Below, piece by piece: positions 1 through 25,900 of a stretch of 34,874 bases of DNA. Numbering within the stretch: position 1 is the stretch's first letter; every line of letters begins with the position of its first letter. Under the pieces are notes generated by a model. That model was not told the origin of the DNA. It made no database searches and saw nothing but the letters and a program-made list of their open reading frames with translations. Source of the DNA: Chrysochromulina tobinii (Eukaryota); assembly GCA_001275005.1 (NCBI GenBank), contig JWZX01001868.1:1-34874 (forward strand), in the 5' to 3' direction. Both the position numbers and the translations under genes were made by a program.

Positions 1-290
1 ACCTCTGATGACCTCTGATGACCTCTGATGACCTCTGATGACCTCTGATGACCTCTGATGACCTCTTGATTGCCTCCTTCATCAGGTTCGATCTCGACGG
101 CGGAGAACCTCTGATGACCTCTGATGACCTCTGATGACCTCTGATGACCTCTGATGACCTCTGATGACCTCTGATGACCTTTGATGACCTTTGATGACCT
201 CTGATGACCTCTGATGACCTCTGATGGTCTCTGATGACCTCTGATGACCTCTGATGACCTCTGATGGCCTCTGATTGCCTCCTTCATCAG
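1..290 (+). repeat. Intronic 10-bp satellite (CTGATGACCT)n with a duplicated acceptor/exon-head block
   Basis: Tandem ACCTCTGATG units at 1-66 and ~107-270. The 33-bp block TGATTGCCTCCTTCATCAG|GTTCGATCTCGACG occurs at 67-99 and 272-304. Confidence 0.95.
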
Positions 291-1006
291 GTTCGATCTC
301 GACGCTGCTCGAAATGGAACGCGAGAACCCTGAGGCGATGCTCGAGCCCGAAGAGCTCGCGCTCGTGCAGGCGGGCGCGCGCGCGCTCCGGTGCGACGTG
401 TGCCTCGCGGCCTCGAAGGTGGGCGTGCAGCGTGCCAAGAAAGGAAAGGCGCTTCAGGACGAGACCGCGCTGAGCTCCATCGTGCAACTCCTGTGCTACG
501 GCACGCCTCCAGACAGCCTGCATGAGTATCCGAAATACCCAGGCAACCCCCCTCTGTGGGGAGAGTTGTATTCTGTCCAACGGCCCAGTAAGGGCGGCGG
601 CGGCGAGGGCGGCGGCGAGGGCGGCGGCGAGGGCGGCGGCGAGGGCGGCAGTGGCGGCGGCGAGGGCGGCAGTGGCGAGGGCGGCAGCGGCGGCGGCGCC
701 GCTGGTGGCCGTGGCAGCGGCGGCTGGCGACTGACGAAACGTCCAAAGGGCTCCAAGCCCGAGGAACGCGGCGGCTCGACGATGCAATACAACGAGCTGG
801 TGATCAAGCATGTAGTCATTAGCCGCGCATGCAAGCACGTGATCCTCGAGCCCGATGCGGACATCGATGACCACGACGGCGCGGTCGACCGGCCCGACCT
901 CGCTCAGACGATCTACGTCCACTCGGCCGAAACCGCTGAACAGATCGCCGCGCGCTACTGCCGCCCGTTTTGCGGCGCGAGGGCAGGCTCCAAGGAAGAG
1001 CTCTGA
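291..1006 (+). CDS. Last exon of an ER-lumen saposin-like (Canopy/MZB1, DUF3456-type) protein; 5' exons lie outside the window
   Basis: Acceptor ttcatcag at 283-290. Six-cysteine saposin-type pattern (LRCDVC...LLC...RAC...YCRPFC), a Gly-rich insertion, and a C-terminal KEEL ER-retention-like signal. Confidence 0.7.
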
Positions 1007-1367
1007 AGGTGTGAAGGTGTAGTCGAACGTGTGAATGGCCGCCAAGGAAGAGCTCTGGGCCGGACCCGAACAGCTGCTTGCGAGCGCGGTCTTGGAGGGC
1101 GTCCAACCTCACCTCTCACGGATCATGCTGGTTGGAGGTTGCTGGAGCGCGTTCCGTGGTGTGGCACATAATTTCAGAAAGATATTTCTCCCCCGCGCGG
1201 GTAACGGTAAGCCTGAAAGCCTGTAGGGTGGTAGTAGGGTGCGCTGATCGCCGCCCGCCCTGCAGCCGCAGGTCCCAGGCTACCTTCCGCGTCCACTTGC
1301 GACTACTCCAATCTCCAAAACAAAGCGGTTGAGCAAGGCGCGCCTGTCGCTCCCTGTGCGGCGCGCC

Positions 1368-2171
1368 TCAGCTACGATAGCGCTGGAGCAGACCCTCGAG
1401 CGCATGCACCTCCATCGTCAGTCTCGCCAGGTTCGCCTTGCCGCCGTCAGGCGCGATGGCCGTCGTGCTGGCGTCCATCAGACGGTTGAGGTAGAGCTGT
1501 GTGATGCCGATTGTCTCTAGGGCCTTATGCACATCCTGAAACTTTTGGATCGCCGCGCACAAGGCCTCGCGACGGCGCAGGAGGCGCTTCGCCTCCGCAT
1601 CCACCCAAGCGATCGTTTTGGCAGAGGCGCTGCGTAACGTCATCGGCCGGCCGAGGACGTCAAGCGTCGCGCCGACGAAGAGTTCATGTGGACGCACTGG
1701 TGTGCCGTCGGTATGCTCGATCGAGAGCGTGAGCGCCGCCTTGACATCCTCGGTGAACAGCTGGAAGCAATCCGTCGATGGCAGGTAGTGCAGCTTCACA
1801 TTCCGGCGGACGCCCATGCCCTGCCCGGAGGTCGTATAATCCGGGTGCGTGGCGAGCTCCTCGTTCCACCACGAGTAGAAGACGAGCGGATCGGGGATTG
1901 TAGTCACCGCAGCCGGCCGTGCACCCGGCCGCGGATCTCGTAGCAAGCCGTGGCACACAGTCTCCATCCCGATCGGTCCCAGGCGCGAGCTACGCTCGGC
2001 TACGGACATGGATGTCGCCGCGGCAGCCCGGGGCGAATTGCTCATGCTGGTCTGCATCAAGGCGGTGCCGGAAGGAGGGTCGCGGGGCGGGGCGACCAGA
2101 AAGGATTTGGTGAATCCCGTCTCCGGACGCGGCCGGAGGTCGGCTGGCCGATGTCGTGGCGAGCCGGCCAT
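1368..2171 (-). CDS. DM10-domain-like protein (EFHC/NME7 N-terminal type), probably axonemal
   Basis: Uninterrupted 267-aa ORF. The segment LVFYSWW...RRNVKLHYLPSTDCFQLF...ELFVGATLDVLGRPMTL resembles the DM10 consensus and is followed by a helical region. Confidence 0.6.
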   Translation of the reverse strand: MAGSPRHRPADLRPRPETGFTKSFLVAPPRDPPSGTALMQTSMSNSPRAAAATSMSVAERSSRLGPIGMETVCHGLLRDPRPGARPAAVTTIPDPLVFYSWWNEELATHPDYTTSGQGMGVRRNVKLHYLPSTDCFQLFTEDVKAALTLSIEHTDGTPVRPHELFVGATLDVLGRPMTLRSASAKTIAWVDAEAKRLLRRREALCAAIQKFQDVHKALETIGITQLYLNRLMDASTTAIAPDGGKANLARLTMEVHALEGLLQRYRS

Positions 2172-2508
2172 GTCAACGGAGTCGGATCAACGACGGGCGT
2201 GTGAACGGGCTGTTAATACGCGGCCGCCGACACCCAGGCCACACACGAACGATATTTCCGATTACGGGCGAGGCGTCCGCGTCAAAACGGTTTGACCGGA
2301 ATCAAGTGTGAAGTGAAACGGCTCTTCATGTAATGAAGTCTAGTTTCACAGCACGAGAGACGCACGCCGCACGGACGTCGAGCGACACGGCACGACATTC
2401 AACACCAGGTCGTAGCGAGCGACGCACCTGCCATGGCCCTGCCACAGTGTGATAACGAGAAGCAACTCCCAGCGACTCACCGTAGCGCACGGGCACAGCT
2501 TGTCAGCT

Positions 2509-3420: not shown

Positions 3421-3629
3421 TAGCTCACAGACTTACGAGAAGGAGAAAATGGACGAAACGCGGTGTGAACCTAAGGACGCGTATTCAAGCTCTTAGACGG
3501 CGTTATTGTAGATTGTAGCGGTCATCTCATGGTCGAGCGTGGAGGTCGGGTTGGACAAAAATGGGCCTTCGCAAACCGCGCGCCTGAACACTATAAGGGT
3601 GCTTCGCGCTCAGACTGTCACGCTCGAGA

Positions 3630-5533: not shown

Positions 5534-5580
5534 AGAGAGATTAGGGAGATTAGGGAGATTAGGGAGAGAGATTAGGGAGA
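5534..5580 (+). repeat. (GAGATTAGG)n minisatellite containing four TTAGGG hexamers
   Basis: TTAGGG at 5541, 5550, 5559 and 5572. Confidence 0.85.
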
Positions 5581-5880: not shown

Positions 5881-8800
5881 TTATCCCCGACGAGCACGGG
5901 CCACGAGCCAGTCAGCCTCTCGCGGGGCGTGCTGTTCAGTGGCCTTGAAGGCCCCTCGAGAGGCCACCTCCGCGCTCGTGTCGCATGCCTTCGACGAGCA
6001 CCACTTCCTAACATGGGAGGTGTCGCATGCCTTCCACGAGCACCACGGCTCAATTGCCGGGGCACTCAGCGCATTGACGAGACCGAGAAAGGGCAGCCGC
6101 GCCCGCCAGAGTTCGCGTCGCTCACCTAAGTGAAAGGCACATCAGGGAGGTCATCAGGGAGGTCATCAGGGAGGCCATCAGGGAGGTCATCAGGGAGGTC
6201 ATAAGCGCCGCTCACCTAGGTGAAAGGCGACGAGCTCGGCCGCGGCGAAGTTGCGGTCGTACGCTTGCTCTTGCTTGGGCGCCGCGCCAAAGTAGGCCAC
6301 GTCATCGACCACCATGAGCCCTTTGGTGAACCACTTGCCTCCGGCTGCACACGCGGGCGGACGAGGTTGAATCACGCGGGCGGACGAGGTTGAATCACGC
6401 GGGCGGACGAGGTTGAATCACGCGGGCGGACGAGGTTGAATCAGAGGCAATTAGAGGCAATCAGAGGCAATCAGAGACAATTAGAGGCAATCAGAGGCAA
6501 TTTGAGGCAATCAGAGGCGATTAGAGGCGATCTTGGATGTCAGCAGAGACGTCATCACGTCATCAGGGAGGTCATCAGGGAGGTCATCAGGGAGGTCATC
6601 AGAGACGTCATCAGAGACGTCATCACGGAGGTCATCCGGGTGGTCCTCAGGAATCTCACCGGTCCAGAGCGTCGACGAGGTGCCGTTGGGCGCGAGCAGC
6701 CCGAGACCTCCGATCTGCGAGAGGAGATAGAGCACCTGTGGGGAAGGGGCGCCGTGGTGAGCATGCGCATGCAGCCCGAGGCCGCCGAACTGCGAGAGAG
6801 GAGATCAGAGCACCTGCCCACGATAGAAGAGAGGAGATAGAAGAGAGGAGATCGGAGGAGATCGGAGGAGATCAGAGGAGATCAGAGGAGATCAGAGGAG
6901 ATCAGAGCACCTGCCCACGATAGAAGAGAGGGTTGTGGCAATTGGGTCCTCCGAGTCGCACGCTGCGCCGCGGCTTGCCCGTGCGCCGGTCGACCAGACG
7001 AAGCATGGAGGTTGCGGCGAGATTGTTGTGCAGGCACCAGAGCAGGCGCGGCGTGGCGAGCACGTTGTTCGCGTGCGCGTGTGCGCGGCCGATCGCGGAC
7101 ATGCCCAGCGCGGTGGACACGCTGCGCTTGATCACCAGCCGTACAAATGGACCGCCACCCTCCATCCCGGGGTCCTCTAATCCCAACCATCCACCTTCCT
7201 TATTTGGACCACCTCTCTCAAATCGCAACGGTCGCACGCCGCCGTCGGCGCGCCATACGGTAAAGTTGGCCTCCGGAATCTGACGAATCTTCTTCGAAGA
7301 CCATTCCTTATTCGGACCAGCTTCCTTATTTGGACCAGCCTCCTCATTTGGATCTCCCTTGATTGCCCTTGATGACGACAGTATCTCGATGTCGAGCTCG
7401 AGCACACGCGCGGTAGCGGAGTCGACTACAAGGGGCGCCCATCGTGGTTATCAGTGGTAATCAGTGGTGATCAGTGGTGATCAGTGGTAATCAGTGGCAA
7501 TCAGTGGTAATCAGTGGCAAATCAGTGACCACACCAGAGGTCATCAGGGGCCATCAGAGTTCATTCACGCCTCTCATTCACACCTACAAGGAGCGTCCCC
7601 TCGTCGGAGAGGATTGAGTCATGAAGGTAGCCAGTGGGCAGCCCCCACTCGCCCGCCACACGCCTCGAGCCCGGATCGAGAAGCGTGAGGCCATCCATCC
7701 CGACACCGAGGGACGACGCGTTGCGTGCGGCGGGGCGCGAGTACTTCTCCTGGCTGCGGAGGGGGGTGGGGGGATGAGGATGAGATGAGGAGTGCAATCA
7801 GCATTCGGGACGGGAGTGCTTCTCCGCACGAGAAGCAATCAATCGCACTCATAGAGATCATCCGCGTTGAGTGCTTCTGAGATCTGCAATCAATCGCACG
7901 CAAAGAGGTCATCCGAGATGAGAAGCAATCAATCACACTCAGAGAGATCGTCATAGAGACAGGCCATCAGAGAGGTCATCCGCGTTGATCACCTGCCCAC
8001 GAGCAGCCACGGCGCCGTCCTGGGCAGCGGCACCACGCCATAGTAGTGGCCGTAGCCGCGGCTCAGCCGCCGGATGCAGCCCAGTCCCAAATCGAGCTCC
8101 ATGAGCGCCTGTGGGGAAAGGGCGCCGTGGTGAGCACATGGGTCCCAGCTCGAGCTCGAAGCGCGTCGTGGTGAGCACATGGGTGGCGTCGGGAGGATCC
8201 AAGATAACACTCACTAGCAATCACTTTCAATCACTTTCAATCAATCACAATCAGGAGCAATCAGGATCACTCAGGAGCACCTGGTGCGTCGACAGGAGCA
8301 ATCATGAGCAATCAGGAGCAATCAATAGCAACCAGGAGCAATCAGGAGCAATCAAGAGCACCTGGTGCGTCGACAGGAGCAGGCGAAACGCACTCGTGCC
8401 TCTCCCCGCCCACGCAGGCCACTGGTCGAGCGGGGGAGTGACGGAACACGTACGCCACGCGGGCGATGCAAGCGCGTTGGGTCGGGCGTAGATAGGCAAT
8501 TGCATGCCGATCGCGTTGGGTCGGGCGTAGATAGGCGATTGCCTAAAAAGGGACCCATGCCGATCCAAATTCGGATCCAAATGAAGAGGGCTCGCCCGGT
8601 ACGGCGCCGTGGGTGCGCCCGGTACGGCGCCGCCGATCCCGAGCCAACGAGAGAGGAAGTCTGGTATAGCTGGCATAGCGGCAGCCAGATGAGGCAGCCC
8701 GACGAGACAGCCCACGGCGACCTTGTTGCAGCTCTCGGGCATCGCGGCCGCTTGGCGCAGCCCGACGAGCCAGCCCACGGTGCGCACGAGACCAAATATG

Positions 8801-10779
8801 AAAGGTCCACTGCGCGAAGTGACGCTCGGGACGGCGCTCGAGTCGGCGCAAGTGCGACGGCGTGCTGTGAAGGCGAGCTGTGAAGGCGTCGGCGGCGGCG
8901 AGGGCGGCAGAGAAGGCGGCGGAGGGTGAGCGCCACCTCGCGCCGTCCCGAGCGCCCCCCGGCTGGCCTCGTGGTAGGCGACGGCCGCGACGATCATCGC
9001 GCCGACGACGCTCACGGCGACCAGCACCGTGTGCACGGACGAGAACATGTAGATGAACGTGTCGGCAGCGATACCGGGCAGGCTCTCGAACCGCTCAGTA
9101 CGGCGCGCGAGGGCCTCGATCGCGCTGCGGTTGTACACTGTGGGGAAGGGGCGGCCGAGGCTGAAGTCGGGCACTAAGCCGGGGTACCGACGGCGCACGC
9201 GGGTGGTGTCGTGCCTGTGGGGGTGGGGGCGCCGTAATGAGCAATTGTATGCACGGCGGCTGGCGGAAGGGGAGGCCTTGCAGTGAGGGGGAAGCCTTAC
9301 AGGGAGGCGCCGTGGTGGCAAGAAAGAAGATGAGGGGGGCACTCAGCATGAACACTCCGCGCACCCAAATGGTGAGTCCTCGACCGCAGCTCGCAATCAA
9401 CACGCAATCAACACGCAATCAACGCAATCAACGCAATCAGCGCGCACCCAAATGGTGAGTCCTCGACCGCAGCTCGCAATCAACACGCAATCAACATGCA
9501 ATCAGCGCAATCAACGCAATCAGCGCGCACCCAAATGGAGAGGCCTCGACCGCAGCTCGCAATCAACACGCAATCAACACGCAATCAACGCAATCAGCGC
9601 GCACCCAAATGGCGAGTCCTCAACCGCAGCTCGATGGACTGGCCGTTGCTGAAGCACCTGTGGGGAAGAGGGCGCCGTGCTGAGCACCCGCAGGCAGGCA
9701 GGCAGCTCGATGGACGGGCCGTTGGCGGCGCCGTGCGGAGCACCTTGAAGCCGATCGCGAGGCGCCACTGGTCGGGTTGCAACGCGTGGCTGTCGGTCCT
9801 GTGGATCTCCACCTGTGGGGAAGCGAGGACGCCGTGGTGAGCGTTTGCATGCAAAGGTCGGGTTGCAACGCGTGGCTGTCGGTCCTGTGGATCTCCACCT
9901 GTGGGGAAGCGAGGACGCCGTGGTGAGCGCTTGCATGCAAAGGTCGGGTCGCAACGCGTGGCTGTCGGTCCTGTGGATCTCCACCTGCGAGATCGCGGTC
10001 ATCAGCGCCCATCAGCGCCCATCAGAGGCCATCAGGGGCTATCAGGGGTCATCAGAGGTCATCAGAGGTCATCAGCGGCAATCCGATACCATCTGTGGCC
10101 ATCAGAGGCCATCAGTCGCAATCAGTGGCAATCAGTGGCCATCAGTGGCCATCAGTGGCAATCAGAGGCAATCAGTCTCTCCACCTGCTTGAGTACGAGC
10201 GCATCCCCCGACTGCAACGGCACCTGTGGGGAAGCGATAGGGAAGCGAGGGCGCCGTGGTGAGCACTTGCATGCGTCTGAGCGCATCCCCCGACTGCAAC
10301 GGCACCTTGATCGCCCGTGGCGTGTGAACGCCTCTCAAGGTGGCGCGTGCGCGGGGGGGGACCCATCCCAAGATGCCCTTGGCAGAGAGACGCACAGCCT
10401 GCAATCAAGGACGCACTCGGAGTGCATGCAATGAGGGACGCAATCAGCGGCACTCAGTGGCACGCAGAGGCACACAGAGGCACTCCGAGGCCATCGAGAG
10501 GAGCGGATGCGCCGTCTCGAGCACTCGGGGGCACTCAAGGGCTATCAGAGGCCATCGAAGGCCATCGAAGGCCATCGAGAGGAGCGGGTGCGCCGTCTCG
10601 AGCACCTCTTCCGGCGAGTGAAGCGGCTGCGTGCTCGAAAAGTTGGCGCCCGCTGCGCCGAAACGAGCCGCGTAGCACGCGTCGTACCTGTGAATAATCA
10701 AAGGTCATCAGAGGTCATCAGAGGTCATCAGTGGCAATCAGAGGTCATCAGCGTCGTGCCCATGTTCTCCAAGGCACTC
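5881..10779 (-). CDS. Multi-exon gene, apparently 5'-incomplete: 2OG-Fe(II)-oxygenase-like C-terminal motif, one TM helix, and a beta-propeller-like (TIGR03032/DUF4915-like) C-terminal domain
   Basis: Phase-consistent manual model: exons 10779-10760, 10687-10594, 10223-10185, 9812-9744, 9657-9605, 9214-8362, 8108-7993, 7753-7584, 7425-6911, 6735-6660, 6344-6216, 6125-5881 (TAA); optional in-frame exon 10398-10306. Translation includes VPLQSGDALVLKQVEIHRTD...WRLAIGFKV, TM VLVAVSVVGAMIVAAVAY, and CHNPLFYRGQVLYLLSQIGGLG...WFTKGLMVVDDVAYFGAA. Most exons are missed by the ORF track. Confidence 0.7.
6350..6443. repeat. Intronic 23-bp tandem repeat, 4 copies (CACGCGGGCGGACGAGGTTGAAT)
   Basis: Directly visible, next to the acceptor at 6345-6347 (minus strand). 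It is followed by 10-bp and 12-bp satellites up to ~6650. Confidence 0.95.
6736..6773 (-). mobile_element. Intron 3'-end cassette copy (introner-like)
   Basis: gcatgcgcatgctcaccacggcgccccttccccacag, preceded by a ~40-nt degenerate copy of the next exon's head. Confidence 0.7.
8109..8141 (-). mobile_element. Intron 3'-end cassette copy (introner-like)
   Basis: catgtgctcaccacggcgccctttccccacag; a partial second copy lies at ~8163-8182. Confidence 0.7.
9215..9252 (-). mobile_element. Degenerate intron 3'-end cassette copy
   Basis: gcatacaattgctcattacggcgcccccacccccacag; supplies the acceptor of exon 9214-8362. Confidence 0.55.
9359..9632. repeat. Intronic ~73-84-bp tandem repeat made of an exon tail, its donor and a CGCAATCAA satellite
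   Basis: The block CGCACCCAAATGG..GTCCTC.ACCGCAGCTCG (exon 3' end plus GT donor on the minus strand) occurs four times, separated by 9-11-bp satellite units. Confidence 0.9.
9658..9695 (-). mobile_element. Intron 3'-end cassette copy (introner-like)
   Basis: gcctgcgggtgctcagcacggcgccctcttccccacag, ending the 86-nt intron 9743-9658. Confidence 0.65.
9770..9987 (-). repeat. 86-bp tandem unit: three copies of a 46-nt CAG+exon-head block alternating with two copies of the cassette
   Basis: Head copies at 9770-9815, 9856-9901 and 9942-9987; cassette bodies at 9816-9855 and 9902-9941. Confidence 0.95.
10224..10274 (-). mobile_element. Intron 3'-end cassette copy with an internal duplication
   Basis: gcatgcaagtgctcaccacggcgccctcgcttccctatcgcttccccacag, preceded by an exact 27-nt copy of the exon head GTGCCGTTGCAGTCGGGGGATGCGCTC. 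Confidence 0.75.
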
Positions 10780-10931
10780 CTTGGTCATCAGTGGTCATCA
10801 GTGGTCATCAGTGGTCATCAGTGGTCATCAGTGGTCATCAGTGGTCATCAGAGGCAATCAGAGGCAATCAGAGGCAATCAGAGGCAATCAGAGGCAATCA
10901 GAGGCAATCAGAGGCAATCAGAGGCAATCAG
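10700..10931. repeat. Intronic 10-bp satellites (GTGGTCATCA)n switching to (GAGGCAATCA)n
   Basis: Directly visible; the unit changes abruptly at ~10850. Confidence 0.95.
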
Positions 10932-10941
10932 AACTCCTCAC

Positions 10942-12494
10942 CTGTCCGCCGACCGGCGGCAGCTTCGCATGCAATTTGAGGATCGTGTCGAGATGTCCCG
11001 TGTCGAGCAGCCGGTCAGCTTCGTCGAGCACGAGGAACTGCGAGGGCGAGAGAGAGGGGGAGGAGTGAGTCGAGAGAGAAGAAAACGATCGCAGTCAGAA
11101 GCACTCAGACACTAGAGACGCAAACAGAGGCGCAATCAGAGGCAATCCGAGGCGCAATCAGAGGCAATCCGAGGCGCAATCAGAGGCAATCCGAGGCGCA
11201 ATCAGAGGCAATCCGAGGCGCAATACGAGGCGCAATCAGGAGAGATCGCACCTGGACCCCCGAGAGCACGAGCTTGCCCGAGCTCACCAAATCCCACACG
11301 CGCCCGGGCGTGCCACATACAATGTCGACGCCTGCGCGCAACCGCTTGAGCTGCGGACCTGGATCCACGCCACCTGAGAGGCAATCAGCGGCAATCGGCG
11401 GCAATCGGCGGCAATCAGCGGCAATCAGTGGTAATTCGTGGCGCAATCAGCTCCACCCCACCGGTAAGGAGGGCAGCCTCGAGGCGCGGCTCGGCGAAGT
11501 AACGGCTGAATTGGGCCACGCACTCGTGCACCTGCTCGCACAACTCCCTTGCGGGCTCAAGGATCAGGGCAGTCGGTATGCGCCCCTCGCCATCAGCACC
11601 GCCGCCACCGCCGCCGCCGCCGCCGCTACCGGCAGCGGCAGCGGCGTCCCTGCTGCTAGAGGTGGCGGCCGAGTTGGTGGCCGCGTGTTCGGGAGCGATC
11701 GCGTCGAGAGCATGCGCGCCGCCGGGGAGGCAGTTTCCATAAAAGGGTCGAGCGCCCAAGTTGATGCGCACCGCGGCGCCCTTGAGGCAAATCGCGGGGA
11801 AGAGCGCCGTGCCCTTGAGCGTCGGCGGCACCGAGAACGCTTCTCCGAGGCTCACGCCGTTCTTGTAGAAGGCCATCGAGCCGATCTCGCGATCGAGCTC
11901 GCAGCCGATCACGTCGCCGCGCGCGTACGAGTCTCCGTAGTCGACGAACTGGTTGCCGTTGGACTTCTTGCCGGTCCCCCCAAAACCGAAGCCCATCTTG
12001 TCGGTGCCGAGCGCGAGCTTGGCCGAGAGGGTGGCCCATCCGACACGGCAGAGCCCATCGCCCAGCTGCTCCACCTCGTAGTAGTAACGGCCGCCCGTCA
12101 CGCCCACGCCCGCCCGCCCGCCCGCCCACGCCTGCGCGGCCCCACACGAGCACTCGAGCCCTTGCGCGCTCACCTGAAGCAGACCGTCGCGATCGCTGCC
12201 GAAACCTATGCCACCCGCGGCCTGCGCGCGTGCGGCCGCCGCCGCGAGCGCAGCGATCTTTGGCTGCGATGAGGCGGCTGCCTGCTCGCGCAGTGCCTCG
12301 TGGCAGATCTGGAGAACGGGCAGTGCAAAGGCCCCCGTCTTGCCGCTGCCCGTCTCGGCGGCAGCCATGACGTCGCCGCCGCCGAGGATTAAGGGGATCG
12401 CCTCCTGCTGCACGGGCGTGGGGAGGAGCCAGCCGAGGTCTTCGACTGCGCGCACAATCGGCGCGTCGAGGCCAAGCTCGGCAAAGGCTGCCAT
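10942..12494 (-). CDS. DDX1: DEAD-box RNA helicase DDX1, N-terminal half only (Q motif, Walker A, SPRY insert, motifs Ia-II)
   Basis: Exons 12494-11462, 11373-11252, 11037-10942. MAAFAELG...[35 protein letters not shown], the SPRY insert characteristic of DDX1 (GRYYYEV...CRVGW...[11 protein letters not shown]), [23 protein letters not shown]. No motif III or HelicaseC exons found downstream. Confidence 0.92.
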
Positions 12495-12742: not shown

Positions 12743-14194
12743 ATGGATGCCTTCGTTTGGAGGCGTGAAGGCCCATGGTGGCTAGAAGGAAGCCGCGCAG
12801 CCTCTGCAGTGGCCTCCATACCCGCGCCTGTGACTCCCGTGCTTGCGTCGGTGCCGAGCCGCGTGGCCTCCATCGTGGCGTCTGCTGTCATCCCCGCATC
12901 CAGCACACCCGTGCGCTGCGGCGAGCTGCTTTGCCAACACGACTCGTACGCTCGTACGCTGGACACCGTGGTCGTCTCTTGCGAGCCCAAGGCGGCTCAA
13001 GAGGCTGCAGCCAAGGGCAAGAAGAAGGGCGGTGCCGAGGCTGTGCCGGCTGAGCAGCTTTGGGACGTGGTGCTCGGCAACACGGTCATCTTTCCGGAGG
13101 GTGGAGGCCAGCCGAGCGATTGCGGCACCGTCGGCGGCGTGCCGTGCCTGCGCGTCGACAACGTCGACGGGCTTGCGAAGCACGTGCTCACCGCGCCGCT
13201 CGCGCCCGGTACGCCCGTGACCGTCGCCGTCGAGTGGGCGCGGCGCGAAGACCACATGGCCCAACACTCGACGCAGCACCTCGTCACGGCCATCGCCCTC
13301 AAGAAATGGGGCTACGAGACCACTTCATGGGGCCTCGGCGAACAGACTTCCTTCCTTGAGCTCGGGACCCCCGAGTTCACGTCGGCGCAGATGATGGAGC
13401 TCGAGACAGCGGCGAATGAGGCGGTCAAGGCCGGCACGCCGGTCACCCCCTCGTGGCACTCGGTCGTCGCGGTCAACGAGGGCGCCGTCGCCGGCCTGCG
13501 CAAGTCGTCAAAGGCACTACCGCCGAGCGTCACGGGGCCCGTCCGTGTCGTGTCCTTCGAAGGGATCGACACGAACACATGCTGTGGCACCCATGTGCAG
13601 AACACTGCACGGCTGCAAGCAATCAAGCTGCTCCGCGTCGAGCGTGTCGGCAACAAGGGCGCGTGCCGTGTCCACTACGTCGCCGGCGGACGCGTGGTCT
13701 CGTACCTTGGAGGCGTCTACGAGCGTGCAAGCGCCCTCGCTAGCCGAATGAACGTGCCAATCGAGTCGATGCTCGAGCGCTACGAGGAGAATGCGAGGAA
13801 GGCCCTCGAGCACGAGAAGGCGTCCAAGGCGCTCGCGCTCGAGGTCGTCGGCCTCCTCGCAGAGGGTCTCCTCCAGAGGCTCACCGCGGGCGAGAAGGCG
13901 GTGCTCGTGCGCCGCGCGGCCGCCGACGCCGATTTCGTCAAGGCGCTCGCGACGGCGCTGGACGAGACGCTGGCGGCGAAGCAGGCGCTGCTGCTCGTGG
14001 TGGTCGGCGAGGGCGAGGGCGAGGGCACCTTCACCCTCGCTGGGCCGCCGGCACTGGTTGACGTTGCCAGTGGCGCGGTGGCCCAGGCGCTCGATGGGCG
14101 CGGCGGCGGCAAGGGCGGCCGCTACCAAGGGAAGTGCCAAAAGCTCGCGGGCGCCTCGGAGGCTCTCGCGGCTGCGGTGGCAGCTTTGGCGTGA
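12743..14194 (+). CDS. AARSD1: Alanyl-tRNA editing protein AlaX (AARSD1-like) with a C-terminal DHHA1 domain; in-frame upstream ATG at 12611
   Basis: TVIFPEGGGQPSDCG, zinc ligands HSTQH and CCGTHV, C-terminal GGGKGGRYQG. Intronless and head-to-head with DDX1. Confidence 0.9.
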   Translation: MDAFVWRREGPWWLEGSRAASAVASIPAPVTPVLASVPSRVASIVASAVIPASSTPVRCGELLCQHDSYARTLDTVVVSCEPKAAQEAAAKGKKKGGAEAVPAEQLWDVVLGNTVIFPEGGGQPSDCGTVGGVPCLRVDNVDGLAKHVLTAPLAPGTPVTVAVEWARREDHMAQHSTQHLVTAIALKKWGYETTSWGLGEQTSFLELGTPEFTSAQMMELETAANEAVKAGTPVTPSWHSVVAVNEGAVAGLRKSSKALPPSVTGPVRVVSFEGIDTNTCCGTHVQNTARLQAIKLLRVERVGNKGACRVHYVAGGRVVSYLGGVYERASALASRMNVPIESMLERYEENARKALEHEKASKALALEVVGLLAEGLLQRLTAGEKAVLVRRAAADADFVKALATALDETLAAKQALLLVVVGEGEGEGTFTLAGPPALVDVASGAVAQALDGRGGGKGGRYQGKCQKLAGASEALAAAVAALA

Positions 14195-17084: not shown

Positions 17085-18179
17085 CTATGCCTTCTTGGTT
17101 TTGCTGACGTGTGTCTGGTAGTCCGGCGTCAGATGTGCGGTGAGAGCTGTCAGAAGGGCCATCGTGTTGTACCCAAGGAGCTGGATCACGAGCCGCAGCC
17201 CCACGCTCACACCGCCCAAGTCCGCGACGATTGCTCCGCGTCCAATGTGGCTGAGGAACTTTTGGGGAAGCACCTCCGGCCCAGAGGCGAACTTGTAAAA
17301 GGCGGCCATGGCCTCGATCTTGCGCTGCTGGACCTGGTTGCCTCCGCCGGCGGTGAAGCGGCTGTTGACAGGCGAGGGGTGGATAGAGTGCACGTGGATT
17401 CCACGCGGCCTCGCTTCGCAAGCGAGGCTGGCGGCAAAGGCCGAGACGCCCGACTTGGTGGCGCCGTACATGACGGCGAATGGGTTGGGGATATACGATG
17501 CGGAGGAGGAGGTAAAGACGATGCAGCCGCGGAGCTGTTTGGCGAGCATGCGCTCGTAGAAAAAGTGGCTCAGCCAGATGTTCGACGTCAGGTTGCAGTG
17601 CAGATTTGCGAGGTGCGCGCCAACGGCATTCTGCTCAAACATGCCAGTAAGGATGTAGCCAGCATTGAGGAAGACGCACTGGACATCGTTGTCGCCGACC
17701 GCGGCCTTGACGCCCTCCATCCACACGCCAGTCCCGTCCGAAAGATTCGCATTCACACGAACTACCTTGCGTGACGGGAACTGCTGCGACAGCTCCGCGA
17801 CGGTGTCGCCGAAGAGGGGCTCGTCGCGGGCAACGAGGATCACGTCGAGCTCCTGCTTGAGCAAGGTGCGCGCAAGCTCCTTGCCGATGCCACTGGACGA
17901 ACCGGTCACAAGCGCCCACTTGGCGCCGTACTTTTTCTTCAGATTTTGGCTGGGGAGCAGCATTGGAATCACGCTGTTCAGCACAAAGTACGCAACCGGC
18001 GCGAAGCCCAACACGCAGAGCCAGAAGGTGGAGGACGTAAGGAGACAGACTAACTGGTCGAGCGTACTCAGGAGTATCGGCTGCACCACAGCCCACGCGT
18101 CGATGGCTGACAAAAAGGCGGAGGCCAACGTATCGGGCGGCGGCGACGGTGGTGGTGGCGGCGGCGCCCTGAAAAACAT
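17085..18179 (-). CDS. Short-chain dehydrogenase/reductase, 17-beta-HSD/ketoacyl-CoA reductase-like, membrane-anchored
   Basis: N-terminal hydrophobic segment, KKYGAKWALVTGSSSGIG, NAG, catalytic S...YGATK. Confidence 0.9.
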   Translation of the reverse strand: MFFRAPPPPPPSPPPDTLASAFLSAIDAWAVVQPILLSTLDQLVCLLTSSTFWLCVLGFAPVAYFVLNSVIPMLLPSQNLKKKYGAKWALVTGSSSGIGKELARTLLKQELDVILVARDEPLFGDTVAELSQQFPSRKVVRVNANLSDGTGVWMEGVKAAVGDNDVQCVFLNAGYILTGMFEQNAVGAHLANLHCNLTSNIWLSHFFYERMLAKQLRGCIVFTSSSASYIPNPFAVMYGATKSGVSAFAASLACEARPRGIHVHSIHPSPVNSRFTAGGGNQVQQRKIEAMAAFYKFASGPEVLPQKFLSHIGRGAIVADLGGVSVGLRLVIQLLGYNTMALLTALTAHLTPDYQTHVSKTKKA

Positions 18180-18310: not shown

Positions 18311-19888
18311 TCAGCCGCCCGCCTTCGCCGCCCTGGCGACTTCGCGTTGTACAAAGTCGGTCACGCACCGCGCCGCCTCGAGCTGCTCGTTCTCAGCGCG
18401 GCTCGCGCTTTCGCGCAGCGTGCGCGCCACGTCCGCGACTCCCAGGCGCGCGGCCACCTCCCAATCGAAGCCGTCCAAGTACGCAGCGACTGAAGGCGCA
18501 TTCGGTGTCACGTGCGTCCCGTCGAGGCGCTTGAAGTCGAGACGGCCGCCGAGCCCCGTCGCCTTGTCAGTGAAGCGCGCCTACAGATGCAGCCGGGATC
18601 AGGGGGAGTGAGGGAGGGCAGCGTGCAATGAGGGAGGCCACTCAGCATTCGTCGCCTTGCCCACGGAAGCGCACCTGCAACCGTTTCGCGAGGGCGCTCG
18701 ACTGATCGATCTCGTCATTGACGAAGCGCACGAGGAGATTGCGCCCGACGGCGTAGCTCGATGAGACGAGATGATCCATTTCCGCAGGGCCAGGCGTGAA
18801 CTCGGGGACGCTGGTGGCCGTGCTCGCGCCCGCGCCCGCGCCCGCACCAGTGTCGGCACCGCCGCCGCCGCCAGGGCCACCGACGCCCCCGCCGGCCGCA
18901 CCCGCGGCGGCGCCTGCCGAGCGCCGTGCACGCACGCTCGCGTCAGCGGCGCCTCGGCTAAAGGCATCGAGCTGCGACGCTGTCGTGTCGAGAGCCCGGC
19001 GCACAGCCTCCACGGTCGAGGTGGACGCCGCCCGAGAGCGCTGTGCCGAGCGCTCCTCGAGCGACTCGCTCAGCCCTTGCAGTGTGCTCGCCACTCCCCT
19101 GCCAAGCATCGCTCCAAGCTCACCTGTGGGCAAAATGGCGCCGTGGTGAGCACATGCATGCAAGGCAATAGCGCTCCAAGCTCACCCGCGCTCCCTAGTG
19201 CACTGCCCGCCCCTTGAGCGACCGTCGTGCCGAGCACGTCTGCCAGCCGCCCGCCCTGCGCGGCGTCACTCAGGCGCACGGCCTGCTCGAGCAGCGGGAT
19301 CGACTCCGCCGCGGCGAAGTTGTTGTACGCGATCAAGACGTTCGCCGCCCGCGGGCCGAGCACCTCGATCATCTTGGCGTCCGACCCCAGTAGCACAAGC
19401 AACTTGGCTCCGAGCGAGTGGCCGAGCCCGACCGTTGGGAGCGTGTCTGTGGACGGATCGCCGCGCACAAAGAGCGCCGCGTCGAGCTCGCGCTTCGCGG
19501 CGCACCATCGAAGCAGCACCTCACTCGCAGCCCCCCAGTGGTCGAGGCCGGTCAGGCCCTGCACGGGCGTGGCCACGATGCCCAGGCCCGTGCCGACGGC
19601 GACGGCCTCGAGGAAGGGACTGTAGGCTTGGCGTGGCGCGGCGCCCACGAGTGCGCCACCCACAAAGTGCACCAAGCCGGTGCAGGGCGTGCCTTCCTCA
19701 GGCAGCAGCACGTCGCACTCACCGATCCGCTGCCAGCGGTTGACCGCACGCGGACGACCGTTGTCAGCGCCCGAGGCCTGCCCACCACGGCCCCAATCAT
19801 CCGATGCGTACGCGCCCGAAGCGGTGCATTGCGGTGGCCGCGCACGCACGATGGCGGCGAACGTGGCGACGGCCGCTAAGAAACCCAT
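18311..19888 (-). CDS. DUF1350-family alpha/beta-hydrolase, probably plastid-targeted; 3 exons
   Basis: Exons 19888-19186, 19123-18675, 18580-18311, phase consistent. VHFVGGALVGAAP, GHSLGAKL nucleophile elbow, NLLVRFVNDEIDQS, LDGTHVTP. Signal-plus-transit-like N-terminus. Confidence 0.85.
19124..19185 (-). mobile_element. 62-nt intron = 14-nt exon-head duplication + linker + cassette
   Basis: G|GTGAGCTTGGAGCG ctattgcctt gcatgcatgtgctcaccacggcgccattttgcccacag|GTGAGCTTGGAGCG. Confidence 0.75.
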
Positions 19889-19942: not shown

Positions 19943-19996
19943 AAAAAGACACCGGGGGAGCCGGGACACACACGGGACACACGGACCCTACCGGTA
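19943..19996 (+). repeat. Left copy of a ~54-bp inverted repeat pair
   Basis: AAAAAGACACCGGGGGAGCCGGGACACACACGGGACACACGGACCCTACCGGTA matches the reverse complement of 22723-22776 with few differences. Confidence 0.9.
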
Positions 19997-20603: not shown

Positions 20604-22358
20604 TCACATGGATACGGCACAACCGGATCTCGTCACTACGCCAAGCGCCATGCTGGTCATTGCCGCCCACTCGTTCGTCGCCGGATCGTACCGCTCAACG
20701 GAGCTGAGCCGGTTTTGGCCGTCATGGCCGCCCATCACATACAGCTTGCCGTCGATTGCCGCCGCCGGACTGGTCCGTGCCGTGGGCATCGGTGCGACTG
20801 CCTCCCAGGCATTCGTCGCCGGATCGAACCGCTCGACGGAGCTGAGGTAACCATTAGGACCATAGCCACCCATCACATACAGCTTGCCATCGATTGCCGC
20901 CGCCGCCGAAGCGGCTCGTGCCGTGGACATCGGTGCGACTGCCTCCCAGGCATTCGTCGCCGGATCGAACCGCTCAACGGAGCTGAGCCGGTTTTCGAGC
21001 CGGTTTTGGCCGTCCAGGCCCCCCATCACATACAGCTTGCCATCGATTGCCGCCGCCGCCGGCATGACTCGTGCTGTGGACATCGGTGCGACTGCCTCCC
21101 AGGCATTCGTCGCCCGATCATACCGCTCGACGGAGCTGAGCTGGTTTTGGCCGTCATGGCCGCCCATCACATACAGCTTGCCGTCGATTGCCGCCGCCAC
21201 CGGACCGGTCCGTACTGTGGACACCGGTGCGACTGCCTCCCAGGCATTCTTCGCCGGATCGAACCGCTCGACGGAGCTGAGCCTAACTCCATTAGGACCA
21301 TAGCCACCCATCACATACAGCTTGCCGTCGATTGCCGCTGCCGCCGGACAGCTTCGTAACGTGGACGCCGACGCCAGTGCCTCCCAGGCGTTCGCCATGG
21401 AATCGTACCTGCAAAGGTAAAGGGTGGCCAACGCATCGCTCGCAAGCCCGCCCACAATGTAGAGCTTCTCAAAGCCCATACGACGACGCGCCGAGTCGCC
21501 GTGCAGTGCGCCAAAAAAGGTCCGGCTCAGCATCTGCATGCCAGCAACGGTCAAGAGGAGCGGCTCGTTGTGCACCGTCTCTTGGACAAACTCGCGCCTC
21601 AGCAGCGGGAAGCGCACCAGCCGAAGCAGTGCCAGCGCGTCGTCCTCGGCGGGTGGAGGCGCCTGGGCGTGCAGCCACGTGACCGCTGCCGAGTACACAG
21701 CCTCTTCACCAGCCACCTTGAGCCGGTCGGAGGCGAGCAGCGCACGCACGGTCTCTGCCGGCGTGCTCAGCCACGCGGGCGTCGCTGCGATCTGCTCAAA
21801 GTGGCGAGTCGCTGCCGACACCGCGTGAGCCGCGAGCTGGCTCAGACCCTGCCGGTCGGCGACGGCCCAGTAGGCGAGGGCTGTGGTCGCGCTCAGGTGT
21901 ACACTCATTGCCTTGGCCGCGGCGTCCACAAGGTGTGGAATCTGCAGATAGGCCGCCGCCTCAAGCACGACCATCAGCTCTGCCGCATCGGCGACTGTGC
22001 AGCTCCCCGTGTAGATGAACTCGAGGCATGCGGCGAGCCCTTGCTTCGGGACCACGGGCAGCGACAGCGGCCGGCCGGCTGTGTCCGCCCACCGCTCACC
22101 GGCTAGCAGGCGCTCAAAGTACTCCGAACCCGAGGTGATGCACAGGGCGTGAGCGTGGAAGGCGGTGCCGTCCGCCGCCACCACCTCGACGTCGGTGAGG
22201 CGGCCATCGCGAAATTTGGCGATGGTGCTAGGCTTCTCGGCGAGGCCGCCCACGAGCTCGATCGATGCGGCGGAGGGTGCGTCGGCGGAAGCGCGGGCGC
22301 GCTTTCGGGGCGGCATAAAAAGGAGACCTGGTGACGAGCAAACATCTCGTCTTCCCAC
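20604..22358 (-). CDS. BTB-BACK-Kelch protein (KLHL-like Cullin3 adaptor); alternative start MPPRKRAR at 22316
   Basis: BTB (LTDVEV...FHAH...SEYF...LEFIYTG), BACK (EEAVYSAAVTWL...LLRLVRFPLL), six Kelch repeats (KLYVMGG...SSVERYDPATNAW). Intronless. Confidence 0.95.
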   Translation of the reverse strand: MGRRDVCSSPGLLFMPPRKRARASADAPSAASIELVGGLAEKPSTIAKFRDGRLTDVEVVAADGTAFHAHALCITSGSEYFERLLAGERWADTAGRPLSLPVVPKQGLAACLEFIYTGSCTVADAAELMVVLEAAAYLQIPHLVDAAAKAMSVHLSATTALAYWAVADRQGLSQLAAHAVSAATRHFEQIAATPAWLSTPAETVRALLASDRLKVAGEEAVYSAAVTWLHAQAPPPAEDDALALLRLVRFPLLRREFVQETVHNEPLLLTVAGMQMLSRTFFGALHGDSARRRMGFEKLYIVGGLASDALATLYLCRYDSMANAWEALASASTLRSCPAAAAIDGKLYVMGGYGPNGVRLSSVERFDPAKNAWEAVAPVSTVRTGPVAAAIDGKLYVMGGHDGQNQLSSVERYDRATNAWEAVAPMSTARVMPAAAAIDGKLYVMGGLDGQNRLENRLSSVERFDPATNAWEAVAPMSTARAASAAAAIDGKLYVMGGYGPNGYLSSVERFDPATNAWEAVAPMPTARTSPAAAIDGKLYVMGGHDGQNRLSSVERYDPATNEWAAMTSMALGVVTRSGCAVSM

Positions 22359-22680
22359 AGCCCCGCGGAAGCAGAAGTGCTGAAACCGAACTTACGCGTC
22401 AAGTAACGCGTCAAGACGAACAAGTCGTCAGTCTCGTCACTTCTCTTAATTCTCTTAACACTTCTCGACTTCTCGTCACCTCCTCACAAGTGAGTTACCT
22501 CACATTCTTCTAATAACACCCGGATCTCATCAATCTTCTGTGAACGCGGGCACTGGATGTGGGCATGTCGCGTGTCGGCTGGCAGCGCCGGCGGCGGCGG
22601 CCCATGTCAGATCGGTGTGCGACATGTACATGTAGAACAAGTGAACAACCGACAAGTTTTATCAAAACGACAACACAACA

Positions 22681-22730
22681 GTACATGTACCGGTACAGTA
22701 CATGTACCGGTACCGGTACATGTACCGGTA
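22681..22730. repeat. Nested GTAC palindromes, including a perfect 28-bp palindrome
   Basis: GTACATGTACCGGTACCGGTACATGTAC at 22698-22725 equals its own reverse complement. Confidence 0.95.
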
Positions 22731-22776
22731 AGCCCGTGTGTCCCGTGTGTGTCCCGGCTCCCCCAGGAGTCTTTTT
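22723..22776 (-). repeat. Right copy of a ~54-bp inverted repeat pair
   Basis: Near reverse complement of 19943-19996. Confidence 0.9.
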
Positions 22777-22785
22777 TGGCGTTTA

Positions 22786-22828
22786 CTTGACTTGACTTGA
22801 CTTTGGCGTTTGACTGACTTGACTTGAC
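22786..22828 (+). promoter_or_regulatory. (GACTT)n pentamer array upstream of LRRC45; candidate promoter or 5'UTR motif
   Basis: acttgacttgacttgac...tgacttgacttgac ends ~75 nt before ATG 22903. Similar arrays lie at 26122-26147 and 33189-33208. Function is inferred only. Confidence 0.35.
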
Positions 22829-22902
22829 CACCCGCTCGCCTCACGAGCGCATTCCTACCCGTCGCGAGCGTGTGCTAATCCGTGTGCTGCTGCTCCCCTG
22901 TT

Positions 22903-25900
22903 ATGACGGCTGAACCCTCGCCCGATGCATTCGTATTGCCACCCGTGCCCTCTCCAACGCTCTCCTTCTCGGACCGCTGCCTTGGCGACCACGGCGTGCG
23001 CGCTCTGGTTGCCGCACTCTCGGTCCGCCGAGACGTCACCTCGATCGACCTGCGCGGCTGCCATGTGCATGCGGCCGGTGCGCTTGCGCTCGCCGAACTG
23101 CTGCTTGGCCCTGGAGGCAGCCGCATCGGCTCGCTCTCGCTCGAGTGGAACGCGCTCGGCACCTCGGATGCGGGCCCGCGGGCGATCGCCCGTGCTCTCG
23201 CGGCCAACTGTGCCCTCACCGCCCTCGATCTGCGCAACAATCGTATGGGCTCATCGGGGGTCGCATCCCTCGCGGAGGCTCTCGCGTACAACAGCACGCT
23301 CATCACCTTCGACTTGCGCTGGAATTCGGCCGGCGTGAGCGGCGGCTTGGCGCTCGAGTCGGCGCTCGCGCAGAACAGGACGCTGCTGCGGTTGCTGCTG
23401 CAGGGCAACCGCGTGCCCGACGACCTGCTCAAGCGCATCGAGCGGCTGCTCGGACGCAACGGCGCCGCCTCGAGCCTTGTCGCCGGCGCCTCAGCGCCCT
23501 ACTCCGAGGACTCCTCGGACAGGTGGCCTGCGATCATATCCTCCCACGCCCTGCCGGGGGAGAGGCTTCTCGTCGCACCGGCGGCGAGGGTGGGCGCGCT
23601 GTCCGACCGCGCGTGCTCCGCCATTGCGAGCACGGCCGACGTGGCCGTGGACGCCTCTCAGTCGTCGCTGTCGCCGCCGCACGGGCTGCTCCGTGCCGCG
23701 TCAGTGCCACCTGTGCCGCCGTCCACAAGCACGCAAGTGCACCTCCACTTGCATGCAGAGGCCAAGGAGAACGAGGCTGGCCAGCTCATCGCTCTACCAC
23801 CGGTATCGGCCGCTGCCGGTCTCGCACTCTTGCCCCCCGCCGGCGGCACAGCAGCGGCCGCGGAGGGTGCCTCAGCGGCGTCACGCTCGCTCAGTGCGTC
23901 GCTGGCGACGGCCGGCGGTTACGTGGCCGACTCGAGGTCCTCGCTGCCACCCGGCGGCTACGTGGCAGACCCGAGGTCCTCGCTGCCGCCTCCGCCAGGC
24001 TACTCCGCCGACGACCCGTGTGCTTCGGTGCCGTATGCGGCGGAGCCGAGTGCCTGCCTGCCGCCCGGCTACGCCGCCTACTCGATGCCCTACGCGGCGG
24101 ATGCGAGCACGTCCCTGCCGCCCGGCTACGCGCCGCCGTCCTCGCAGATGGGCTCGGTACCGGCGTCGATGCCCACGTCGTGGATGGCGTCGCCAGCCCC
24201 CACGCCGCTGCGCGCAGCGGTGCGCACGCGCACGCTCGAGAACGCCCTGGTGCTGCAGCACGCCGAATTCAGTAACAAGCTGAAGCACGCCTTCGAGCGC
24301 GCGGACGCTGCCGAGGAGATCTTGACCTCGGAGCGATCTCGCGCCGACCAGCAGCGTGAGAAGGCCCTTGTGGCGGCGACTGAGGAGGCGGAGGCACGTA
24401 AGAAGCTCGCGCTGCTGCAGCGCGAGCTCACGGAGGCGCGTAAGAAGGCGGACGAGGAGGTGGCGCGCGTACTCAAGGAGGGGTCGACCCGGGAGCAGCG
24501 CACTGCTCTCGCCGAGGCCGCGCGTGATCACCTCGAGCGCGAGCTGCAGGCGCGAGATGCGCGCCTCGAGTGCACATGATCGCATCTGATGGCCCCTGAT
24601 AGCCTCTGAGTGCCTCGATTGGCCTTTGCATGCAGGCGCGAGATGCGCGCCTCGAGATGGAGCTCAAGGCGATCGCCGATCGCGAGCAGCGGGCGGCGAT
24701 GGCTGAAGCACGCGCGGCCGAGTCCGCGTCGCAGCTGAGCGCGCTCAACGAGCGGCTACTCAACGAGCGGCGCGCGCACGCCACCACGCTCACGGAGCTT
24801 CAGGACCGTCTGAGCGACGCGAACCCGACTGCACCACGGCTCGGCATGCACGTGCTCACCACGGCGCCCTCCTCTCCCCACAGGACCGTCTGAGTGACGC
24901 GGAGGCGGTACGCACCTCCGCGGAGCTCCGCCTCGCCTCCGCCGAGGCGGCGCGTGCTGCGGCGGTCACGGAGGCTCTCTCGAGGCAGTCGCGCCGTCAT
25001 GAGCAGGCGCTCGAGCAGGTGCGCGTGCATGCATGCTGATGGTCCCCTCTCCCCGGTTGCATGCATGCTCCCCACCCTTCCCTCCGCGCAGGTGCGCGTG
25101 TCCGTCGAGCGCGTGCCTGCATGCTGATTGCCCTCCCCATTTGCAGGCTGACTACCCCCGCCCTCCCGAGCAGGTGAAAGAGTCCGTCGAGCGCGCCGAG
25201 GCCGACGCGGCGCGCGCGGCCGAGCAGATCTCCAAGCACCGAGATGAGCTCGAGACGGCGCGAGCCCTCGCGGAGACGAAACAACGGTCGCTCGAGAGCC
25301 AAGCTGTGGAGCGCGAGGCGGCGCTGGAGAAGAGCTACGAGGCGCGCCTCGAGGCGGTGGAGAAGGAGAAGGCGTCGCTGCGCGAGTCGCACCACGCGAC
25401 GCTCAGCCAGATGCGCGAGGCCGAGGAGGTACGCCGGCAACAGCACGACGTGAAGCTCGATACGGCGCGCAAGGCGCATGCAACGCTGGAGCGGCGCTGC
25501 TACGAGCGCGAGGCGCATGCGGAGAGTCTGGAGCGGGAGCTCGCACGCGTGCAGTCCGAGTTGGCGGAGGCGGGGCACGCGGAAGGCGCCCTCAAGGAAG
25601 CCCTCGAACGACAGCGCGAGGCGGCCGCGGAGCAGAGCGCCGCCGCGGCCGCGGAGCTCGCGACGACGCGTCGCCACTGGGAGGAGCGACTGGCGACGGC
25701 CACCGCGGACAACCGCGCGCTCGCGCGCCAGCTGCTCGACACACAGCGCGAGCTCGCCCTCGCCAATGGCCGTTGGGAGGCGTCGGTGCAGACGCTGCAG
25801 CACTCCGTGCTCCAGTGCTTCCAGCATTCAATCGAGTCGACGCGCGGGGGAGGGTCGCCACCACTGATGGCTGGAGAGCTGGGCGACGAGGACGAGGAGG

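What the first reader, a model, noticed from the sequence alone, without database searches (positions are those of the whole stretch)
67..25195. Nearly every intron is bracketed by direct repeats copied from its own exon junction
Seen, including introns without the cassette: 86-290 (33-bp repeat spanning CAG|GT); 6215-6126 (GCCTTTCACyTAG|GTGAGCG at both ends); 7583-7426 (intron end gggcgccccttgtag mimics exon tail gggacgctccttgtag); 10759-10688 (GCACGACGC vs GTACGACGC); 11461-11374 (GTGGGGTGGA vs GTGGCGTGGA); 18674-18581 (~25-nt degenerate copy); 24550-24635 (26-bp TGCAG|GCGCGAGATGCGCGCCTCGAG repeat). Simple units fall at 62-94 nt. Established: tandem duplication of a proto-splice site (AG|GT) is a long-proposed but rarely documented route to intron gain. 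Inference: it is the dominant route here, and the range from perfect to degenerate copies gives an age series.
Basis: partly seen in the sequence, partly recalled or inferred. Interest (0 to 1): 0.8.

Follow-up and report, generated by a model that had tools for sequence, protein, structure and literature searches.

The report
Introns copied from neighbouring introns' ends
In this alga many short introns consist of a 20-50-base copy of the gene's own next exon joined to a shared splice-signal piece, which in a few young cases matches a nearby intron letter for letter; new introns are therefore likely being made by a copy-and-paste repair slip, a route to intron gain that could be watched happening in natural populations.

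Summary
The repeats are real: all 7 cited are in place, and 19 modelled introns score 202 against 82±5 for shuffled pairs. "Nearly every" is too strong (12 of 19). They are not pure tandem duplications of AG|GT. In 127 related loci, 121 of 190 copies of one acceptor module sit directly behind a copy of the next exon's head (null 0.09%). That copy is 20-54 nt when near-perfect and is a median 41% of the intron; only 30 of 98 exonic sites have AG before it. One 81-nt intron is present in L058 and exactly absent in 98%-identical L029/L008; its module equals that of the next intron 524 nt away. Five of 28 young modules match a neighbour in full, 0 of 51 degenerate ones. RNA contigs support 7 window introns. 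Best reading: templated insertion of an existing intron's 3' end with a long, variable target duplication, probably by microhomology template switching. The enzyme, DNA versus RNA template, and age against distant haptophytes are untested.

The parts
86..290 (+). 14-nt exon-head copy + 10-mer array + second acceptor motif, stacked behind an identical acceptor (67-85) inside a larger intron that starts before base 1
   Evidence: no RNA test
6126..6215 (-). intron B12, 90 nt, repeat on both sides (13 tail, 11 head), 12-mer array filler most like the neighbouring intron B11
   Evidence: bridged by RNA contig X16 record 13
6345..6659 (-). intron B11, 315 nt, arrays, no junction repeat
   Evidence: RNA by record arithmetic
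6736..6910 (-). intron B10, 175 nt: about 46-nt degenerate exon-head copy + acceptor module (core 6750-6762), plus an internal second copy of the donor junction and an array grown from the copy
   Evidence: RNA by arithmetic, 69 letters expected and seen
7426..7583 (-). intron B9, 158 nt, opposite polarity: exon-tail copy (13/15) supplies the acceptor
   Evidence: bridged exactly by RNA contig X14 record 8
7754..7992 (-). intron B8, 239 nt, only a weak internal exon copy
   Evidence: RNA by arithmetic, 115 letters in X12 and X14
8109..8361 (-). intron B7, 253 nt: internal donor-junction copy, two module cores (8164-8176, 8123-8135) around a degenerate exon-head copy
   Evidence: RNA by arithmetic
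9215..9604 (-). intron B6, 390 nt: three internal copies of exon tail + donor, degenerate module (9230-9242)
   Evidence: open frame after removal; no RNA depth at 9348-9533
9658..9743 (-). intron B5, 86 nt: interrupted exon-head copy + module (9673-9685)
9813..10184 (-). intron B4, 372 nt: array intron followed by two stacked units of 43-nt exon-head copy + module (9916-9928, 9830-9842)
10224..10305 (-). intron B3, 82 nt: perfect 27-nt exon-head copy + module (10252-10264)
   Evidence: RNA contigs of X14 and X16 leave the genome at 10279, the end of the copy
10399..10605 (-). intron B2, 207 nt, internal 81-nt duplication, no junction repeat
   Evidence: RNA piece boundary at 10397 fits
10688..10759 (-). 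candidate GC-AG intron B1, 72 nt, 8/9 head copy; upstream exon doubtful
11038..11251 (-). DDX1 intron C2, 214 nt, no repeat
   Evidence: orthologues read through without an indel
11374..11461 (-). DDX1 intron C1, 88 nt, 9/10 head copy + array
   Evidence: the RNA contigs listed carry the unspliced form in three runs, one breaks at the acceptor
18581..18674 (-). intron D2 of a DUF1350 gene, 94 nt, degenerate 23-nt head copy
   Evidence: no RNA test
19124..19185 (-). intron D1, 62 nt: perfect 14-nt head copy + module (19139-19151)
   Evidence: no RNA test
24550..24635 (+). GC-AG intron E1, 86 nt, perfect 5+21-nt repeat around a degenerate 10-mer array
   Evidence: no RNA test
24804..24883 (+). 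intron E2, 80 nt, GA donor, 37-nt degenerate head copy + module (24854-24866)
   Evidence: open frame only if removed; no RNA test
25019..25173 (+). intron E3, 155 nt, nested, internal copy of the junction
   Evidence: no RNA test

Best explanation
Many introns here are a copy of the next exon's first 20-50 bases followed by a shared splice-acceptor piece, and they likely arise in one step when a DNA-copying enzyme slips from an exon onto the 3' end of an existing intron and back. Inferred steps: a nascent strand ending in a 2-4 nt match jumps to an intron's 3' part (branch point, pyrimidine tract, CACAG; sometimes a 10-mer array with another acceptor), copies about 32-59 nt through the AG and the following G/GT, then re-anneals 20-54 nt upstream at a G|GT, so those bases are made twice. 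The first copy gives the donor, the pasted piece the acceptor, and splicing removes both, restoring the original coding sequence. Selection would keep only inserts that are on the sense strand, start at a usable donor and reach about 63-89 nt. The same slip onto the adjacent acceptor or donor gives the stacked copies. I favour a DNA repair or replication polymerase (polymerase-theta-like; recalled) on a DNA template, in cis in at least some cases.
For: Shown: architecture in 121 of 190 modules. Copy length 20-54 nt with no fixed value, insert 32-59 nt. An exact empty site: 81 nt in L058, absent in L029 and L008. That insert has 0 edits to the next intron's module in L029/L008, 1 edit in L058, and at least 3 edits to every other of 269 modules. 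Whole-insert matches to a same-strand intron within 3 kb: 8 of 102 pairs for near-perfect copies against 21 of 17148 other-contig pairs; 0 of 205 for degenerate copies. Microhomology at the copy/module join: at least 2 nt in 20 of 34 (16 of 30 without four stacked or coincident cases, my count) against 9% null. 18 of 21 stacked pairs are within 3 edits. Donor compensation: +5 G in 59 of 68 sites without upstream AG against 15 of 30 with it. DDX1 orthologues read through C1 and C2 without indel.
Against: Only 5 of 28 young modules with local candidates have a local template, and they come from 3 loci; the overall rank test of local against distant similarity is not significant (p 0.29); array similarity at 300-1500 nt is weak (0.082 against 0.058). 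The empty site is a single case and has no polarity: recombination between the repeats could have removed the intron instead. Neighbour likeness could also come from later gene conversion. No enzyme was identified. DNA and RNA templates give the same footprint.
Confidence: 0.5

Rival explanations
1. Same outcome, but the template is RNA: a nicked template strand primes on unspliced pre-mRNA (often the gene's own) at an acceptor junction, a reverse transcriptase copies the intron's 3' end and rejoins downstream, as in target-primed reverse transcription.
For: Variable long duplication, ragged 5' end with microhomology and fixed 3' end are the footprint of target-primed retrotransposition (recalled). 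Strong co-linearity: arrays on the same strand as the nearest module in 96 of 96, neighbouring modules within 1.5 kb on the same strand in 100 of 104, spliced junctions score as sense in 83 of 98 against a calibration of 107 of 124. Templates in the same gene.
Against: Selection and same-strand DNA slippage explain the strand bias equally. One module with its own short copy lies antisense between two modules of the other strand (L052). No poly(A) or reverse transcriptase was seen or searched for genome-wide.
Confidence: 0.25
2. A classical introner: a non-autonomous transposon moved by a transposase, carrying the 3' splice site and taking the donor from its target duplication.
For: One conserved module at about 1.4 per 10 kb in flanks (59 in 409 kb, biased upward); splice-site logic as in Symbiodinium and Polarella classes 4/5; introners occur in other Chrysochromulina MAGs.
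Against: Duplications of 20-54 nt against 3-9 nt; no terminal inverted repeats (at most 4 of 8 matches in 40); ragged 5' end; first 15 nt of introns 43% alike on average; neighbour templating.
Confidence: 0.1
3. One reading: an exon segment holding AG|GT is duplicated in tandem, and the middle is later overwritten or expanded.
For: Stacked acceptor and donor copies inside introns are true local tandem duplications; B10 is 78% exon-derived; B12 and E1 have repeats spanning AG|G[TC].
Against: Exon copy is a median 41%, at most 62%, of 117 module introns; AG precedes the copy in 30 of 98; the L029/L058 pair differs by copy plus module at once.
Confidence: 0.08
4. The introns are old and their 5' ends are overwritten from spliced mRNA or cDNA (aborted intron loss), so the repeats date repair, not gain.
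For: Gives the same head copy and conserved length; internal copies spanning the spliced junction occur (B10, B7); 31 of 129 copies follow intron-like sequence.
Against: Does not explain a new acceptor added behind a retained old one, nor the neighbour-identical module at a site that is empty in a sister population.
Confidence: 0.07

Closest known systems
Introners with TSD-derived donor (Symbiodinium; Polarella glacialis classes 4/5, 6/8/10; Aureococcus). PMC9860276 passages and supplement rows; bioRxiv 10.1101/2020.10.14.339549 abstract and section 5
   Same: Insert carries the 3' splice site, the 5' end of the duplication is the donor, coding sequence unchanged, many copies, GT/GC/GA donors.
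   Different: Their duplications are fixed at 3-9 nt and the family is alike end to end; here 20-54 nt, variable, about 40% of the intron, no inverted ends. The published pipeline requires likeness at both ends, so it would miss this; C. tobinii appears in the supplement only as an input genome (file cut when stored).
Daphnia pulex neointrons from staggered double-strand-break repair (PMC4202315, passages)
   Same: Direct repeat shared by intron end and adjacent exon, repeated secondary events inside young introns, population polymorphism.
   Different: Repeats are 4-12 bp and the filler is mostly of unknown source; here the repeats are several times longer and the filler is another intron's acceptor.
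Tandem genomic duplication and intron transfer/transposition (review PMC3443670, passages)
   Same: Donor recruited from duplicated exon; intron sequence taken from another intron.
   Different: Here both happen in one event, and only the 3' half of the source intron is copied.
Target-primed retrotransposition of non-LTR elements (recalled; search gave no usable paper)
   Same: Variable duplication, 5' truncation with microhomology, constant 3' end.
   Different: No poly(A) or tail, 32-59 nt only, ends exactly at a splice acceptor, template can be a neighbour.

Membership tests
Introner (DNA-transposon type) | Family of introns alike up to both splice boundaries | tested here: not met
   First 15 nt average 43% identity, 3 of 780 pairs reach 80%; only the 3' part is shared
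Introner (DNA-transposon type) | Short fixed TSD (3-9 bp) | tested here: not met
   20-54 nt in 40 near-perfect cases, selected at 20 nt or more; 9-54 nt plus one 70-nt stacked case among 138
Introner (DNA-transposon type) | Terminal inverted repeats (in part of families) | tested here: not met
   0-4 of 8 matches at insert ends in 40
Introner (DNA-transposon type) | Many copies creating introns at unrelated sites, with empty orthologous sites | tested here: met
   190 non-redundant modules; one exact empty site
Tandem genomic duplication | Whole intron derived from flanking exon | tested here: not met
   Median 41%, max 62% of 117; 1 of 20 window introns above 60%
Tandem genomic duplication | AG|GT inside the duplicated segment supplies both sites | tested here: not met
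   AG before the copy in 30 of 98 exonic sites; met in single cases such as B12
Intron gain by break repair / templated insertion | Direct repeat around a filler, microhomology at the joins | tested here: met
Intron gain by break repair / templated insertion | Filler copied from nearby sequence | tested here: inconclusive
   5 of 28 young modules, 3 loci; rank test not significant
Intron gain by break repair / templated insertion | Dependence on a repair polymerase | not testable with these tools
   no genome held, no genetics
Target-primed retrotransposition | RNA intermediate and a reverse transcriptase partner | not tested
   no genome-wide search possible; no Rfam match in the window
Spliceosomal intron | Removed from mature RNA | tested here: met
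   2 junctions bridged directly, 4 by exact record arithmetic, 1 by departure at the repeat end; C1 seen unspliced; genes A, D, E untested

The most novel reading that the evidence does not exclude
A self-propagating splice acceptor with no transposase: introns seed new introns, often in the same gene, by having their 3' end pasted into exons together with a 20-54 nt duplication that becomes the new intron's 5' half. It is active now, has produced thousands of introns in this lineage, and is invisible to introner searches that need likeness at both ends.
Probability: 0.45. Interest if true: 0.85.

Novelty: new variant of a known kind. Interest (0 to 1): 0.7.

Why it matters
Most recently gained introns have no identifiable source (review PMC3443670, passages). 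Here source, join and empty site can all be read, and the process segregates between populations about 2% apart, so rate, template choice and enzyme can be tested. The footprint decays within a few percent divergence and fails the two-ended test of introner screens, so the route may be undercounted elsewhere. The long repeats also offer a precise deletion route, a built-in gain-loss cycle (inference). I found no description of this architecture in haptophytes in nine searches; subscription papers are not covered.

Tried and rejected
No whole genome is held, so genome-wide figures rest on 634 kb of loci picked by the module itself, which favours module-rich genes. Module and array patterns found nothing in viral or prokaryote collections; DDX1 queries found no haptophyte loci there, so intron age against distant haptophytes is open. 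RNA evidence covers 6000-11560 only; contigs show presence, not splicing level, and unspliced or DNA pieces occur at depth about 3, so the unspliced C1 form is not evidence of retention. Priming by microhomology at a target CAG: rejected as a general rule (tail-side extension 0-1 nt in 23 of 40). Assembly artefact: unlikely, since the DNA run bridges several repeats in single contigs (records 22-25) and two assemblies agree on the empty site; copy numbers of stacked units may still be assembly-dependent. Rows dropped before counts: 262 raw modules to 190 (redundant or short flanks); 129 with score 9 or more, 110 nt or less and 40 nt flank; 117-118 without stacked copies; 54 to 34 with a consensus-like linker for microhomology; redundant loci skipped. 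The sense calibration reuses its training genes and includes one mis-framed gene. Outputs were cut in the middle. Rfam: no match.
Full report
Setting. The window is GC-rich eukaryotic DNA. The first DDX1 exon is identical over its first 108 residues to a protein named Chrysochromulina tobinii RNA helicase (P0008), so the organism is Chrysochromulina or very close. I modelled 19 introns in four genes; with them removed the frames are open (B2 corrected by one base). RNA contigs bridge 7426-7583 and 6126-6215 directly, fit 8109-8361, 7754-7992, 6736-6910 and 6345-6659 by exact record arithmetic (69 and 115 letters), and leave the genome at the end of the repeat in 10224-10305.

Observation. All seven cited repeats exist. 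The summed junction score is 202 against 82.3 +- 4.7 in 5000 derangements; 12 of 19 introns exceed the null 95th percentile, three show nothing. The signal is mainly intron start against next exon start. At 86-290 the upstream half of the repeat is a shared acceptor motif, not exon.

Beyond the window. Of 190 non-redundant modules, 121 have a copy of the following exon head upstream at score 12 or more (null 0.09% of 1130 shuffled pairs; same-locus control 8); 114 of 138 copies start with GT, 9 with GC, 4 with GA. In 40 near-perfect cases the copy is 20-54 nt, the insert 32-59 nt, the intron 63-89 nt, with no inverted ends. Module-free arrays also have flanking repeats (48 of 82 against 0.9%), in both polarities.

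Against pure duplication. The copy is a median 41% and at most 62% of 117 introns. Of 98 sites with exonic sequence upstream, 30 have AG and 73 have G before the copy; +5 G is found in 59 of 68 non-AG against 15 of 30 AG sites, as expected if selection keeps only usable donors (reading recalled from splice-site biology).

Gain caught between populations. L058 and L029 are 98.3% identical (1494 matches, 26 substitutions). L058 carries 81 extra bases, a perfect 33-nt copy plus a 48-nt module; L029 and L008 have the single copy. L094 has an extra stacked unit that L009 lacks. All other modules compared between population pairs were shared, partly by ascertainment. Polarity is unknown.

Source of the insert. 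The L058 insert is identical to the module of the next intron, 524 nt downstream, as it stands in L029/L008, and at least 3 edits from all other modules among 269. After removing homologous contexts, modules within 2 edits make up 11 of 216 same-strand pairs within 3 kb against 309 of 22875 other-contig pairs. Whole-insert matches to a neighbour occur for 5 of 28 young modules (L040 three, L047, L058) and 0 of 51 degenerate ones. Against: 23 of 28 have no local template, and the overall rank test is flat (p 0.29). The join between copy and module shows at least 2 nt of microhomology in 20 of 34 against 9% expected.

Strand. Arrays and modules are co-linear in 96 of 96, neighbouring modules within 1.5 kb in 100 of 104; one antisense module with its own short copy exists (L052). 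This does not separate DNA from RNA templates.

Mechanism. Shown: architecture, precise restoration of coding sequence, one empty site, neighbour identity in a few young cases, microhomology. Inferred: one-step template switching, selection on strand, donor and length, and local slippage for stacked copies. Untested: enzyme and template type. I give DNA template switching 0.5, RNA templating 0.25, classical introner 0.1, duplication then overwriting 0.08, overwriting of old introns 0.07.

Comparison. Introners have 3-9 bp duplications and two-ended family likeness (PMC9860276 passages; bioRxiv 10.1101/2020.10.14.339549 section 5); Daphnia neointrons have 4-12 bp repeats (PMC4202315 passages); PMC11782384 (abstract and passages) reports 4-30 bp repeats near splice sites generally, with no haptophyte. 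The C. tobin genome paper mentions introns once (PMC4580454 passages). It works like an introner in splice-site logic and like break repair in footprint, and fails the membership tests of introners and of tandem duplication. An earlier unchecked note on this genome (e1-2577349) saw a similar footprint and read it as a mobile family; the empty site, neighbour template and microhomology were found here before I saw it.

Verdict. Real, widespread in the lineage and apparently ongoing; a new variant of intron gain. Interest 0.7.

Noticed in passing
window 10760-10941: DDX1 stops after motif II at a 10-mer array and an unrelated gene follows. Orthologues continue for about 400 residues, RNA contigs run on 150-237 letters beyond the last DDX1 exon, and DNA contigs break in the array: probably a chimeric join in the assembly.
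   Followed up: partly
P0001, P0008: A separate Chrysochromulina gene fuses the DDX1 N-terminal DEAD/SPRY half to La and EF-hand domains; P0008 looks like a mosaic of it and true DDX1.
   Followed up: no
window 24804-24883: Intron with a GA donor; 4 of 138 copies in other loci also start with GA.
   Followed up: partly
window 5975-6050 and 7150-7350: In-frame exon duplications (27-nt repeat around a 15-nt filler; EAGPNK-type repeats) whose opposite strand resembles pyrimidine-rich acceptor sequence; retained in RNA contigs. Possibly exonised antisense inserts.
   Followed up: no
window 6736-6910: The 10-mer array here appears to have grown from the exon-head copy after a one-base insertion created TGAT; arrays across loci are TGAT-based units of mostly 10 nt, perhaps repeated branch-point-like motifs.
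   Followed up: partly
L052 1000-1029 (+): Module with its own short exon-like copy on the strand opposite to the flanking modules.
   Followed up: no
L027 9314-9640; L063 8371; L006 8575-9200: Copy number of stacked acceptor or donor units and array length differ between closely related loci, so introns expand and contract quickly.
   Followed up: partly
window 12779-14191, 17088-18179, 20607-22316: Long intronless frames (alanyl-tRNA-editing-like, short-chain dehydrogenase-like, BTB-kelch-like; names recalled from motifs) lie beside a gene with 12 introns: intron gain is strongly clustered by gene, as local seeding would predict.
   Followed up: no
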